A DNA stretch of 64,000 nt from the IMG/VR virus record IMGVR_UViG_648028025_000010, one strand, 5' to 3'. This stretch comes from a virus. Its lineage: Duplodnaviria > Heunggongvirae > Uroviricota > Caudoviricetes. The stretch's first letter is position 1, and each line of letters starts with the position of its first letter. Below are positions 9,001-12,000 of the stretch, one piece after another. Made by a program: the position numbers.

Positions 9001-12000
9001 GAACCAGCTCTTGCCATTGAGAAACAGCAGATGGGTCAACGCCAGCAGCTTTCGCTACTTTGGCTTTCGTACCGTAAAAATTAATTACGTCTGATTTAAA
9101 CATCGCACCTCCAATATTGAGTTTTCTCAATGCTAATCACTCAAGGAATCTCAAGTCAAGGGTTATTAAGATATCTAAATATGAACGAGAAAACTTTAGG
9201 TCAACGCATTAGAGAAAGACGTAAGCAGGTAGGCTTAAGTCAAAACGGTTTAAGCAAAGCTGCTGGCGTATCTGGCTCATCAATTTCATTATGGGAAAGT
9301 GACCATACAGCCCCGCGCGGGCAAAATTTGCATCGCCTCGCCGAGGTATTGCAATGTTCACCAACTTGGATACTGTTTGGCGACGAGGACAAAACACCAG
9401 CTCCCCCTGTTTCACTCGATAGTGCCTTAGACTTATCGGAAGATGAGTTAGAGATGCTGCGTTTGTATCGCGCACTTCCTAAATCAGAGCAACAAGCACA
9501 ACTCAGCGAACTCCGCGCCCGCGTTGAGAATTTTAATCGCCTGTTCACCGAGCTATTAGAGGCTCGCAAACGCAACAAGCATCAATAATCATCCCTTCAC
9601 AAAATTTTAAAGCCTTACATTTCAATGTATTGGCTTTATCTTGCGCCAACACTTGAGTTTTCTCATCAAAAAACCTTGACGAAAAATAATGAGAAAACTA
9701 AATTACCTCCATCAAGACACCGCACGGTGTTCTCAGCAAACAGTTCCGCTACCCCGGCGTTAAGGGGAAATGAGGTCAGCATGGATACTATCGATCTTGG
9801 CAACAGCGAATCTCTGGTATGTGGCGTGTTCCCCAACCAGGACGGCACGTTCACCGCGATGACGTATACCAAAAGCAAAACGTTTAAAACCGAAAATGGT
9901 GCCCGTCGCTGGCTGGAAAGAAACTCAGGTGAGTGATATGGATTTCAACACAATCATGGAAAAGGCTTACGAAGAATACTTCGAAGGCCTTGCCGAAGGC
10001 GAAGAAGCTCTCAGCTTCAGTGAGTTTAAACAGGCACTCAGAATAAGAATGTGCTCTCACAATGACGCGGAGCACAAATATGAGAAGCAAAATCAGACCG
10101 CAGAAAATTTTGTTCTGGAACCCGGAGAAACGCTTTTCAAAATTCCCGTTACGTGCCCCATTTGCGGTTTTACATCAGAAGAACTTGACGACTCCTGTAA
10201 CAATCAGGAAACAACCAAGTATGTCGAAGATGATACCGAGTGCGCACGAAGAACGATTATATCCACGAGTCCAAACTCCAGGACCAATAAATCTCACTAT
10301 GAGAGGGTGATTAATCCACTCCCCCAAACCAATAAAAAAGATGCCGGAGGACAAAAAACCCAATGGAACAACGGGATATCTGTCAAAAAAAGACGTTCCA
10401 TTAAAGACAAACAACGCAGCGCCAACAACTGTAAGCGCTTTATACCAGTAATCAATTTTCATGTTCTTAAGCGGATTTATTGGTGGTTGCGACATTGCTT
10501 AATGAATCCTTAAAACTGTGGTGATTTTAAGGATACCACCTCGCCTGACGTGGTTAAAAGCAGGCACACAACACGAAAGCGCACGGCGAAGTTCGTCTCA
10601 CTGTACGGTGTCGTTAAATTTAATTCGACCGTGCGCTTCCGGTTGTGGCAACCCGCAAAATGGCGCGGCGGTAAGTATGGCGGGGTTATTCCTTCCCCGT
10701 TGAGGACACCGGGTTGTCAGGTTGACCATACGCTTAAGTGACAACCCCGCTGCAACGCCCTCTGTTATCAATTTTCTGGTGACGTTTGGCGGTATCAGTT
10801 TTACTCCGTGACTGCTCTGCCGCCCTTTTTAAAGTGAATTTTGTGATGCGGTGAATACGGCTAAGCGCACGCGGAACAGTTAAAACCAAAAACAGTGTTA
10901 TGGGTGGATTCTCTGTATCCGACGTTAATTGTTAACTGGTTAACGTCACCTGGAGGCACCAGGCACTGCATCACAAAATTCATTGTTGAGGACGCGATAA
11001 TGAAAACGTTATTACCAAACGTTAATACGTCTGAAGGTTGTTTTGAAATTGGTGTCACTATCAGTAACCCTGTATTTACTGAAGATGCCATTAACAAGAG
11101 AAAACAAGAACGGGAGCTATTAAATAAAATATGCATTGTTTCAATGCTGGCTCGTTTACGTCTGATGCCAAAAGGATGTGCACAATGAATTCAGCATTTG
11201 CGCTTGTTCTGACAGTTTTTCTTGTTTCCGGAGTGCCAGTTGATATTGCAGTCAGTGTTCACAGGACAATGCAGGAGTGTATGACTGCAGCAACCGAACA
11301 GAAAATTCCCGGTAACTGTTACCCGGTCGATAAAGTTATTCACCAGGATAATATCGAAATCCCGGCAGGTCTTTAAAACAGTTCCGTAATAAATATCCGG
11401 TTTCATTCTTATATGCCAGCAATGGCAGGGATTTGTTCATCCTTAAATCTGTCATGAGGTTAAAACAAAATGAGTAAAGTCTTTATTTGCGCCGCTATTC
11501 CTGACGAACTGGCAACAAGGGAAGAAGGCTCTGTGGCTGTAGCCACAGCCATTGAAGCTGGCGACGAACGCCGTGCTCGAGCAAAATTTCACTGGCAGTT
11601 CCTGGAACATTATCCGGCTGCTCAGGACTGCGCTTATAAATTTATTGTCTGCGAGGATAAACCTGGCATACCCCGCCCTGCCCTCGATTCATGGGATGCT
11701 GAATATATGCAGGAAAACCGCTGGGATGAGGAGTCTGCTTCTTTTGTCCCGGTTGAGACTGAATCCGATCCGATGAACGTCACTTTTGACAAGCTGGCCC
11801 CTGAAGTACAGAACGCTGTCATGGTTAAGTTCGACACATGTGAAAACATCACCGTTGATATGGTTATTAGCGCACAGGAATTGTTGCAGGAAGACATGGC
11901 AACATTCGACGGACATATCGTTGAAGCGTTGATGAAAATGCCAGAAGTTAACGCCATGTATCCGGAGCTTAAGTTGCACGCCATTGGGTGGGTTAAGCAT

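What the first reader, a model, noticed from the sequence alone, without database searches (positions are those of the whole stretch)
9104..9670. The two prophages have different repressor specificities but share the downstream DicF-dicB module
Prophage A's repressor has a different N-terminal HTH from DicA and is flanked by TTGAGTTTTCTCA-type inverted repeats (9116..9131, 9652..9666). Prophage B has DicA flanked by TGTTAGTCATGGC-type repeats (60351..60368, 60862..60909). Downstream, ydfA, DicF, dicB and ydfD are conserved. The two elements are therefore probably heteroimmune, and two independent switches control the same division-inhibition genes.
Basis: partly seen in the sequence, partly recalled or inferred. 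Interest (0 to 1): 0.45.

Follow-up and report, generated by a model that had tools for sequence, protein, structure and literature searches.

The report
Swapped immunity cassettes upstream of dicBF
Two neighbouring lambda-like prophages in an E. coli O26 chromosome carry different repressor/Cro/operator cassettes in front of related DicF-DicB cell-division-inhibitor operons, which is the ordinary modular "immunity swap" of lambdoid phages and not a new kind of system.

Summary
The window is E. coli O26:H11 chromosome. Prophage A is the Qin orthologue and prophage B is a complete lambdoid prophage in tandem with it. Each has a divergent Cro-like/repressor pair followed by a ydfA-DicF-dicB-ydfD operon. 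Each repressor gene is flanked by its own operator palindromes. These are TTGAG-N4-CTCAA in A and TGTTAG-N6-CTAACA in B, and the B type matches the K-12 DicA operator Oc. Each motif occurs only in its own cassette within the 64 kb. The exchanged segment is about 700 bp. It runs from codon ~31 of the Cro-like gene to the start of the dicB promoter transcript, and the flanks are 89-93% identical. The A cassette is 98% identical to that of the viable phage mEp460_ev081, and the repressors are 100% identical. B's repressor is 93% identical to K-12 DicA. Different operator specificity is therefore well supported by sequence, although untested. Three parts of the reading need correction. DicB (63%) and YdfD (44%) are not the same in the two elements. 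A closely related O26 genome has ten such modules, not two. The switches are probably not independent. Prophage A encodes Rem identical to the K-12 antirepressor of DicA, and near-identical Rem travels with both repressor types. This is an ordinary finding of low novelty.

The parts
8876..9103 (-). Prophage A Cro/DicC-like gene (75 aa). Codons 1-31 (9011-9103, containing the HTH) belong to the exchanged cassette. The rest is shared with prophage B and with K-12 dicC.
   Evidence: Pfam P22_Cro 59.3 bits. Identity to B is 17/38 in the N-terminal half and 35/38 in the C-terminal half. DNA homology to B ends at 9010.
9116..9131 (.). A operator OR1-like, 16-bp palindrome ATTGAGTTTTCTCAAT. It lies immediately downstream of the -10 of the leftward (cro) promoter-like site.
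   Evidence: Promoter-like TTGACT-18-TAGCAT on the minus strand at 9159-9130.
9141..9154 (.). A OR2-like weak site TCAAGGAATCTCAA. It sits at the same position and has the same GGAAT centre as P22 OR2 (CTAAAGGAATCTTTAG).
   Evidence: Read from the sequence and compared with the P22 c2 upstream region. The assignment is an inference.
9165..9180 (.). A OR3-like palindrome ATTAAGATATCTAAAT abutting the repressor start codon.
   Evidence: the repeat finder I5, pattern scan, half-site table. P22 OR3 lies at the same position relative to the c2 ATG.
9181..9588 (+). Prophage A repressor, 135 aa, a short DicA-family XRE/HTH_3 protein of the mEp460_ev081 type. Recognition helix SGSSISLW.
   Evidence: Pfam HTH_3 56.9 bits, with no peptidase domain hit. 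100% identical to the mEp460_ev081 and HannyBb repressors. N-terminal 72 aa align to P22 C2 structures, E=8e-16. 57% identical to B's repressor.
9652..9667 (.). A OL-like operator CTTGAGTTTTCTCATC, just upstream of the -35 of the rightward dicB-operon promoter.
9676..9704 (+). Promoter-like site of the prophage A dicBF operon (TTGACG-17-TAAATT), the dicBp / PL equivalent.
   Evidence: The -35 aligns with the TTGACC of B and of K-12.
9688..9703 (.). A OL-like operator in inverted orientation (AATGAGAAAACTAAAT), covering the promoter spacer and -10.
9710..9936 (+). Shared leader (CATCAAGACACCGCACGG...) and ydfA (9781-9936, DUF1391). The homology to B and to K-12 resumes here, which marks the right end of the cassette.
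   Evidence: blastn 9710-9924 = 60922-61136 at 90%. Alignment. Pfam DUF1391.
10774..10825 (+). DicF sRNA, copy A.
   Evidence: Rfam RF00039 76.7 bits. Identical to K-12 DicF over the Rfam-matched 52 nt (the annotated K-12 gene has one extra 5' T).
11000..11188 (+). dicB, copy A, 62/62 identical to K-12 DicB.
   Evidence: Pfam DicB 136.8 bits. Identity.
11185..11376 (+). ydfD, copy A (DUF1482, annotated as a lysis protein).
3068..3319 (-). rem of prophage A. It encodes the Rem antirepressor, 83/83 identical to K-12 Rem.
   Evidence: Function in K-12 is from PMC10448788.
60105..60335 (-). Prophage B dicC (76 aa), 73/76 identical to K-12 DicC.
60350..60369 (.). B operator OR1 (equivalent to Oc), TTGTTAGCCATGACTAACAA. 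It lies immediately downstream of the -10 of the leftward promoter-like site TTGACT-17-TATTTT (60396-60368).
   Evidence: K-12 Oc TTGTTAGTCATAACTAACAA binds DicA in vivo (PMC3441716).
60400..60419 (.). B OR3-like site (Oa-like), core TTAGCATTAGCTAA, abutting the dicA ATG. The sequence is identical in K-12.
   Evidence: In K-12, Om and Oa did not bind DicA in the in vivo assay (PMC3441716), so this may be a DicC site or a weak site.
60419..60826 (+). Prophage B repressor, 135 aa, 125/135 identical to K-12 DicA. Recognition helix SHVSVSQW.
60861..60880 (.). B OL-like operator ATGTTAGTCATGGCAAACAA, upstream of the -35 of dicBp.
60887..60915 (+). dicBp of prophage B (TTGACC-17-TAATCT), overlapped by operator TTGTTAGTCATGGCTAATCT (60896-60915).
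   Evidence: Sequence and positions. The same hexamers occur in K-12 upstream of ydfA. The simple promoter scan did not flag it, so the promoter assignment rests on homology to K-12 dicBp.
60993..61145 (+). ydfA-like gene of prophage B (DUF1391).
62344..62395 (+). DicF sRNA, copy B. It differs from copy A at one base, in the 3' hairpin.
   Evidence: Rfam 75 bits. 51/52 identical.
62570..62758 (+). dicB variant of prophage B. 39/62 identical to K-12 DicB, with 14/31 in the C-terminal half.
   Evidence: Pfam DicB 125.5 bits. Alignment.
62755..62943 (+). ydfD-like DUF1482 gene of prophage B, 28/63 identical to copy A.

Best explanation
Both loci are immunity regions of the DicA/DicC family, which resembles P22 immC. 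Each has a short, non-cleavable XRE repressor and a divergently transcribed P22-Cro-type gene. A three-site operator region lies between them. Two more operators bracket the -35 of the rightward early promoter (dicBp, the PL equivalent), which drives ydfA...DicF-dicB-ydfD.

The two prophages differ by a roughly 700-bp specificity cassette, 9011-9709 in A and 60240-60921 in B. It contains exactly the parts that must match one another: the Cro HTH, all the operators, the repressor gene and the dicBp core. The flanks on both sides are homologous. A carries the mEp460_ev081-type cassette, with half-sites TTGAG-N4-CTCAA, close to P22's TTAAG-N4-CTTAA. B carries the K-12 DicA-type cassette, TGTTAG-N6-CTAACA.

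Each repressor is therefore expected to shut off only its own cro and dicBF promoters, so the elements are heteroimmune.

Shown here: the sequences, the positions, the cassette boundaries and the homologies. Shown in the literature for K-12 only: DicA binds Oc, DicA represses dicBp, DicA and DicC form a bistable switch, and Rem relieves repression. Inferred: binding of the A repressor to the A sites, absence of cross-binding, and promoter activity in this strain.
For: - Motifs are cassette-specific and clustered.
- The site layout is the same in A, B, K-12 and P22 relative to the cro -10, the repressor ATG and the dicBp -35.
- DNA homology breaks at 9010/60239 and resumes at 9710/60922. A compared with K-12 Qin shows the same break, 9005-9709.
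- A is 98.3% identical over 7027-9924 to the functional phage mEp460_ev081, and the repressors are 100% identical.
- B's repressor is 93% identical to K-12 DicA and B's dicC 96% identical to K-12 DicC. K-12 Oc binds DicA, and a single base change abolishes binding (PMC3441716).
- Recognition-helix residues differ: A has G32, S33 and L37 where B and K-12 have H, V and Q and P22 has N, V and Q.
- Other family members (PPompW, a Rac-like element, a Klebsiella phage) keep the H-V...Q helix and a TTAG-N6-CTAA core at the same positions, while A is the outlier in both helix and operator.
- The tandem prophages have integrases 91-96% identical.
- The A cassette is in 796 and the B type in 850 of 5,426 genomes, nearly always once per genome. 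The DicF-dicB module has a median of 2 and up to 10 places per genome.
Against: - No binding or immunity experiment exists for the A-type repressor.
- The half-sites share a TTxAG flavour. The A sites at 9165-9180 and 9688-9703 contain TTTAG, so weak cross-recognition cannot be excluded from sequence alone.
- The single-copy-per-genome statistic would also arise if many cassette types were simply drawn at random.
- Prophage A is defective, with IS-disrupted int and xis and no structural genes in the window. 'Immunity' for it means only repression in trans.
Confidence: 0.8

Rival explanations
1. The switches are specific at the DNA level but not independent. The Rem antirepressor of prophage A inactivates both the DicA-type repressor of prophage B and A's own mEp460-type repressor, probably through parts of the proteins that are conserved between them. 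One signal would then turn on several dicBF operons and could induce prophage B.
For: - Rem of A is 83/83 identical to K-12 Rem. K-12 Rem raises dicBp expression 165-fold by antagonising K-12 DicA (PMC10448788), and B's repressor is 125/135 identical to K-12 DicA.
- Rem is 100% identical in the DicA-type phage PhiR42_1 and 96.4% identical in the A-type phages mEp460_ev081 and HannyBb.
- The LQCSPTW..FGDEDK linker and the C-terminal ~45 residues are conserved across the family.
- There is a precedent. The Gifsy-1 and Gifsy-3 antirepressors each inactivate both repressors although those phages are heteroimmune (PMC3121763).
Against: - The Rem-repressor contact surface is unknown, and a direct Rem-DicA interaction has not been mapped.
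- The signal that induces rem is unknown, and deleting rem did not change spontaneous dicBp induction in K-12 (PMC10448788).
- Ten substitutions separate B's repressor from K-12 DicA.
- B has its own Ant-like antirepressor.
Confidence: 0.45
2. The two repressors cross-bind. The elements would then be homoimmune or partly so, and the motif differences would be neutral drift within one specificity.
For: - Both proteins belong to one family. They are 57% identical, with the same length and the same domain order.
- The half-sites share T-T-x-A-G, and some A half-sites are TTTAG.
Against: - When registered on the dyad, the core half-sites differ at 3 of 5 positions, and the AG...CT spacing is N4 in A and N6 in B.
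- A single A-to-C change in Oc abolishes DicA binding in K-12 (PMC3441716).
- No A-type site occurs in the B cassette and no B-type site occurs in the A cassette.
- The Cro HTH co-varies with the repressor and the operators.
- There is no DNA-level homology across the cassette, which indicates replacement rather than drift.
Confidence: 0.07
3. The A cassette is a dead relic in a decaying prophage. Its repeats no longer function, and A's dicBF operon is silent or controlled by something else, such as nucleoid proteins.
For: - Prophage A has lost its structural genes and has IS-disrupted xis and int and a truncated ydfB.
- A 517-bp unrelated segment sits between ydfB and the DicF precursor region.
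- Fis and Hfq are reported to contribute to silencing in K-12 (PMC10448788).
Against: - The repressor and cro ORFs are intact and are 100% and about 98% identical to those of a viable phage.
- All operator copies are identical to the phage's.
- 572 genomes carry the cassette at 99% identity or more. DicB is toxic when derepressed, so a working repressor is under selection.
Confidence: 0.08

Closest known systems
E. coli K-12 Qin prophage dicC-dicA-dicBF locus (DicA/DicC bistable switch, dicBp, Rem antirepressor)
   Same: Prophage A is the positional orthologue. The genes cspF, ydfT, ydfU, rem, hokD, relBE, flxA, ydfA, dicF, dicB and ydfD are 97-98% identical. Prophage B carries the same immunity type: DicA 93% and DicC 96% identical, and an Oc-like operator that differs at 2 central bases.
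   Different: In prophage A the 9005-9709 cassette is replaced by a different specificity. A also keeps the cII-like/YdaT and replication genes that K-12 Qin has lost. Prophage B has a divergent DicB and YdfD and different genes between ydfA and DicF.
Temperate phages mEp460_ev081 (LR597641) and HannyBb (PP925841)
   Same: The repressors are 100% identical. Window 7027-9924 is 98.3% identical to the phage, including every operator copy. The phage also carries DicF/dicB-type early-left genes and a Rem 96% identical to that of A.
   Different: These are complete, viable phages, whereas prophage A is a decayed remnant at the Qin locus. The segment between ydfA and DicF differs.
Phage P22 immC (c2 repressor, cro, OR1-3, OL)
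   Same: The N-terminal 72 aa of the A repressor align to C2 structures at E=8e-16. The Cro-like gene is Pfam P22_Cro. The layout is the same, with three sites between cro and the repressor and the third abutting the ATG. A's half-site TTGAG-N4-CTCAA differs by one base from P22's TTAAG-N4-CTTAA.
   Different: There is no S24 peptidase or RecA-cleavable C-terminal domain. A short (~60 aa) C-terminal region typical of DicA and the Gifsy repressors takes its place. The early-left operon carries DicF-dicB instead of the P22 genes.
Lambda imm434 / imm21 hybrids (classical heteroimmune lambdoid recombinants)
   Same: A compact block holding the repressor, cro and the operators is exchanged between otherwise homologous genomes, giving a new immunity with unchanged flanks. 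Co-transfer of cI and cro is documented for lambdoid phages (PMC9836094).
   Different: The left joint here lies inside the cro gene, just after its HTH. The repressors are of the short, antirepressor-controlled class.
Gifsy-1/-3 repressors and trans-acting antirepressors (Lemire et al. 2011, PMC3121763)
   Same: Short, non-cleavable repressors of the same broad group as DicA. Heteroimmune co-resident prophages are coupled by antirepressors that act on non-cognate repressors.
   Different: The Gifsy antirepressors are LexA-controlled. The signal for Rem is unknown, and coupling in this strain is only inferred.

Membership tests
DicA/DicC-type (P22 immC-like) lambdoid immunity locus | A short (~135 aa) XRE/HTH_3 repressor without a self-cleaving peptidase domain | tested here: met
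   Both repressors are 135 aa. Pfam finds HTH_3 and related HTH families only. They align with K-12 DicA along their full length.
DicA/DicC-type (P22 immC-like) lambdoid immunity locus | A divergently transcribed Cro-like (P22_Cro family) gene next to the repressor | tested here: met
   Pfam PF14549 at 59.3 bits (A) and 44.5 bits (B), on the opposite strand, with 77- and 83-bp intergenic regions.
DicA/DicC-type (P22 immC-like) lambdoid immunity locus | Repeated palindromic operators in the divergent region and at the downstream rightward promoter | tested here: met
   A has sites at 9116-9131, 9165-9180, 9652-9667 and 9688-9703. B has sites at 60350-60369, 60400-60419, 60861-60880 and 60896-60915.
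DicA/DicC-type (P22 immC-like) lambdoid immunity locus | The repressor binds these operators and represses dicBp and the cro promoter | not testable with these tools
   Shown only for K-12 DicA and Oc/dicBp (PMC3441716, PMC10448788). Inferred here.
dicBF operon (ydfA...DicF-dicB-ydfD) | DicF sRNA followed by dicB and a DUF1482 gene, downstream of the repressed promoter and on the same strand | tested here: met
   Rfam DicF at 76.7 and 75 bits. Pfam DicB, DUF1482 and DUF1391 in both elements. No plus-strand terminator-like site was predicted between the promoter and DicF.
K-12 DicA immunity specificity (Oc-type operators) | Operators of the form TTGTTAG-N6-CTAACAA and a recognition helix SHVSVSQW | tested here: met
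   This row is for prophage B. Its operator is TTGTTAGCCATGACTAACAA and its helix is identical to that of K-12.
K-12 DicA immunity specificity (Oc-type operators) | The same feature, tested on prophage A | tested here: not met
   No TTAG-N6-CTAA site occurs in the A cassette. The helix is SGSSISLW. No DNA homology to the K-12 cassette exists apart from a 66-bp patch at 82%.
P22 C2 / lambda CI class of RecA-cleavable repressors | A C-terminal S24 peptidase / oligomerisation domain with a cleavage site | tested here: not met
   Only residues 1-72 align to C2, and there is no Peptidase_S24 hit in Pfam. The literature notes that DicA lacks the cleavage site (PMC10448788).

The most novel reading that the evidence does not exclude
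The decayed Qin-like prophage A acts as a master controller of its neighbours. Its Rem antirepressor, identical to K-12 Rem, would inactivate the DicA-type repressor of the intact, nleC-carrying prophage B, A's own mEp460-type repressor, and possibly more of the ~10 DicA-family switches in this O26 genome. Under this reading, heteroimmune switches that cannot see each other's operators would still fire together, co-inducing several DicF/DicB variants and prophage B.
Probability: 0.3. Interest if true: 0.5.

Novelty: new member of a known kind. Interest (0 to 1): 0.22.

Why it matters
The result explains how EHEC-type strains can hold many copies of a toxic division-inhibitor operon. Each copy sits behind its own repressor/operator specificity, so incoming related phages are not excluded and each copy stays silent under its own lock. 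It also gives a defined operator set, TTGAG-N4-CTCAA, for a second specificity of the DicA family, and this set is found in about 15% of complete E. coli genomes. It raises a testable question of whether one antirepressor, Rem, couples these otherwise separate locks. None of this changes the current understanding of lambdoid immunity.

Tried and rejected
1. Exact identity of the window to O26 strain RM8426. Rejected: there are 16 SNPs in the first 50 kb and a 1-nt indel near 61996, so annotation coordinates shift by 1 after that point. My first dicB-B coordinates were therefore out of frame.
2. DNA-level alignment of the two cassettes. blastn finds nothing between 9011-9709 and 60240-60921. 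MAFFT forces an alignment that is meaningful only at the -35 and beyond 9710.
3. The simple sigma-70 scan found A's dicBp and both leftward promoters but not B's dicBp, whose -10 is TAATCT. That promoter is assigned by homology to K-12.
4. The exact 13-mer with 2 mismatches is not by itself significant in 64 kb. It gave 5 matches against 1.8 expected, and 3 of 100 shuffles reached 5. The clustering test was needed.
5. A search for a rem homologue in prophage B found none (tblastn). B instead has an Ant-like protein.
6. A literature search for an explicit statement that DicA-family cassettes are heteroimmune found none. It returned only the Gifsy precedent and general lambdoid statements.
7. 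A PHROGs search of the unannotated 106-aa minus-strand ORF in A gave no hit.
8. I considered that only the HTH differs between the repressors. Rejected by the per-half identities.
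Full report
**Origin and context.**
The window matches E. coli O26:H11 chromosomes. The segment 8300-11500 is 100% identical to strain RM8426 and to many other O26 strains. The whole window differs from RM8426 by 16 SNPs in the first 50 kb and by a 1-nt indel near 61996.

RefSeq annotation of that genome shows what the two prophages are. "Prophage A" is the orthologue of the K-12 cryptic prophage Qin. It carries cspF, ydfT, ydfU, rem, hokD, relBE, flxA, ydfA, a ydfB fragment, dicB, ydfD and an exonuclease gene, and its xis and int are broken by ISCro1 and IS600. 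"Prophage B" is a complete lambdoid prophage. It carries nleC, tail and head genes, terminase, lysis genes, a Q-like gene, replication genes, dicC, a dicA-like gene, dicB, exo, xis and int, and it lies next to rspB.

The integrase of B is 91-96% identical to the integrase fragments of A. The two elements are therefore tandem insertions of the same integration type.

**Check of the observation.**
- In A, TTGAGTTTTCTCA occurs at 9117 and 9653, and inverted with one mismatch at 9690-9702.
- In B, 18-mers of the TGTTAGTCATGGCTAACA type occur at 60351, 60862 and 60897, against 0.02 expected.
- A degenerate A pattern, TT[GTA]AG-N4-CT[CA]A, finds one further site at 9166, abutting the repressor ATG. 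It finds nothing else in the 64 kb.
- TTAG-N6-CTAA finds one further B site at 60403, abutting the dicA ATG, and nothing outside the B cassette.
- Dinucleotide shuffles never produce such clusters.

Rfam finds DicF at 10774-10825 and 62344-62395. Pfam confirms HTH_3 repressors, P22_Cro-type partners, DicB, DUF1482 (YdfD) and DUF1391 (YdfA) in both elements.

**Anatomy.**
blastn between the two elements gives 89% identity over 7426-9010 / 58655-60239, covering the replication gene, the cII-like/YdaT gene and the 3' two thirds of the cro-like gene. It gives nothing over 9011-9709 / 60240-60921. It then gives 90% over 9710-9924 / 60922-61136 (leader and ydfA) and 93% over 10567-11104 / 62136-62674 (DicF precursor region and the 5' half of dicB).

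The same break, 9005-9709, appears when A is compared with K-12 Qin. Elsewhere A is 97-98% identical to K-12 Qin.

The exchanged block therefore holds four things: codons 1-31 of the Cro-like protein (its HTH), the divergent control region, the whole repressor gene, and the core of the rightward promoter up to the point where the transcript should begin.

Both cassettes have the same layout.
- One palindrome lies immediately downstream of the -10 of a leftward promoter-like site. In A this is TTGACT-18-TAGCAT at 9159-9130. In B it is TTGACT-17-TATTTT at 60396-60368.
- A weaker middle site follows.
- A third site abuts the repressor start codon.
- Two sites bracket the -35 of the rightward promoter. 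That promoter is TTGACG-17-TAAATT at 9676-9704 in A and TTGACC-17-TAATCT at 60887-60915 in B.

P22 has the same plan upstream of c2. A's control region can be read against it element by element, including the GGAAT centre of the middle site and the GTCAAG of the cro -35.

**Identity of the two cassettes.**
B's repressor is 125/135 identical to K-12 DicA and its DicC is 73/76 identical. Its first operator, TTGTTAGCCATGACTAACAA, differs from K-12 Oc (TTGTTAGTCATAACTAACAA) at two central bases only. Yun et al. showed in vivo that DicA binds Oc and that one base change abolishes binding (PMC3441716). Ragunathan et al. showed four things for K-12: DicA represses dicBp, DicA and DicC behave as a bistable switch, DicF is processed from the dicBp transcript, and Rem relieves repression (PMC10448788).

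A's repressor is 100% identical to the repressors of the temperate phages mEp460_ev081 and HannyBb. Window 7027-9924 is 98.3% identical to mEp460_ev081, including all operator copies. The 2023 paper mentions that this phage has genes resembling dicAC, dicBF and rem. I found no statement that its immunity differs from that of DicA.

**Why the specificities should differ.**
- Registered on the dyad, A's half-sites read a-T-T-G-A-G and B's read T-G-T-T-A-G-Y. The AG...CT distance is N4 in A and N6 in B.
- Aligned on P22 C2 without gaps, A has G32, S33, S34 and L37 in the recognition helix. DicA and B have H, V, S and Q, and P22 has N, V, A and Q at the same positions. From my recollection of the P22 c2-operator structures, Val33 and Gln37 are base-contacting residues. 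I did not verify this here.
- Three further family members (PPompW, a Rac-like element, a Klebsiella phage) keep the H-V..S-Q helix and a TTAG-N6-CTAA core at the same three positions. A is the outlier in both helix and operator.
- The Cro-like HTH changes together with the cassette, with 17/38 identical in the N-terminal half against 35/38 in the C-terminal half.

Population data agree with this. The A cassette is in 796 of 5,426 complete E. coli genomes (810 places). The B/K-12 type is in 850 genomes (872 places). Both are almost always single-copy. The DicF-dicB 5' module occurs at 11,533 places in 4,718 genomes, with a median of 2 and a maximum of 10 per genome, and RM8426 has 10.

Tandem insertion by near-identical integrases also fits, because the incoming phage must not have been repressed by the resident one.

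All of this is inference from sequence. No binding experiment exists for the A type.

1. The repressors differ along their whole length, with 51% and 57% identity in the two halves. Only the LQCSPTWILFGDEDK linker is invariant. The gene that is chimeric at the HTH is cro, not the repressor.
2. The downstream module is only partly shared. DicF is 51/52 identical. YdfA is 40/51 identical. DicB is 39/62 identical, with a C-terminal half at 14/31, although both copies pass Pfam DicB. YdfD is 28/63 identical. The genes between ydfA and DicF are unrelated.
3. A has K-12's DicB but not K-12's repressor. B has K-12's repressor type but a different DicB.
4. Independence is doubtful. Prophage A encodes Rem identical to K-12 Rem, the protein that derepresses K-12 DicA. 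B's repressor is 93% identical to K-12 DicA.
5. Rem that is 100% identical travels with a DicA-type repressor in phage PhiR42_1. Rem that is 96% identical travels with the A-type repressor in mEp460_ev081 and HannyBb. This suggests that Rem does not track operator specificity. The Gifsy-1 and Gifsy-3 antirepressors provide a direct precedent for crosstalk between heteroimmune prophages (PMC3121763).
6. Prophage B additionally has its own Ant-like antirepressor gene behind C4 and isrK-like RNAs.

**Comparison with what is known, and novelty.**
Multi-copy dicBF loci in different prophages of EHEC strains are published (PMC5069750). Co-transfer of cI and cro as a unit in lambdoid phages is also published (PMC9836094). 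Exchange of immunity regions to give heteroimmune phages is textbook lambdoid biology (imm434, imm21). This finding is one more instance of it. It identifies a second specificity within the DicA family, sitting in the Qin orthologue of O26 strains, together with its operator set.

I rate it a new member of a known kind, of low interest. The one reading with some novelty is the possible Rem-mediated coupling of heteroimmune switches.

Noticed in passing
whole genome of the near-identical strain NZ_CP028116.1 (window module 10567-11104 used as query): The DicF-dicB 5' module occurs at 10 places in this O26 genome. Across complete E. coli genomes it occurs at 11,533 places in 4,718 of 5,426 genomes, and 163 of those places are on plasmids.
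   Followed up: partly
window 55968-56519 (-), with RNAs at 56574-56658 and 56684-56758 (-): Prophage B carries an ORF6N/Ant-like protein (PHROG 'anti-repressor', 261 bits). Rfam C4 antisense RNA and isrK matches lie at higher window coordinates (56574-56758), upstream of it on the minus strand. This looks like a P1/P7 immI-like or Gifsy isrK-type antirepressor control module and would be a second route for inducing prophage B.
   Followed up: partly
window 17007-19554 and L002 15841-17136 (just beyond the window end): The IS600-disrupted integrase of prophage A is 91-96% identical to the intact integrase of prophage B. The two prophages are therefore tandem insertions of the same integration type at the Qin/rspB site. 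A's xis is split by an ISCro1 (IS66-family) element at 14137-16752.
   Followed up: partly
window 10039-10555, ORF 10175-10495 (-): A 517-bp segment between the ydfB fragment and the DicF precursor region is absent from both K-12 Qin and mEp460_ev081. It holds an unannotated 106-aa minus-strand ORF with hydrophobic stretches suggestive of a membrane protein (by eye; no TM prediction run) and no PHROG hit. It lies antisense within the dicBF transcription unit.
   Followed up: partly
window 62570-62758 and 62755-62943: Prophage B's DicB shares 25 of 31 residues with K-12 DicB in the N-terminal half and 14 of 31 in the C-terminal half. Its YdfD homologue is only 44% identical. Whether this DicB variant still works through MinC and ZipA is unknown.
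   Followed up: no
window ~61996 (poly-T run) within minus-strand ORF 61796-62017: A 1-nt indel relative to strain RM8426 lengthens a small minus-strand ORF (PHROG 4274, unknown function) from the annotated 60 aa to 73 aa.
   Followed up: no
window 3536-3691 (-) and 55541-55696 (-); sok RNA at 55691-55865 (-): Both prophages carry hokD-type type I toxin genes. Rfam finds the sok antitoxin only next to the B copy at gathering threshold. Prophage A has relBE, and prophage B has a RelE/ParE-HTH pair at 54757-55438.
   Followed up: no
window 33621-34119: A cluster of 11 SNPs relative to RM8426 lies within about 500 bp at the junction of the tail assembly chaperone gene (gpG) and the adjacent tail protein gene of prophage B. 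The rest of the first 50 kb has only 5 SNPs. This looks like a small recombination patch.
   Followed up: no
window 49873-50042 (-) and 51415-51661 (-): An STnc100 sRNA match and three tRNA genes (Arg, Arg, Ile) lie in the late-regulatory region of prophage B, downstream of the Q-like antiterminator gene.
   Followed up: no
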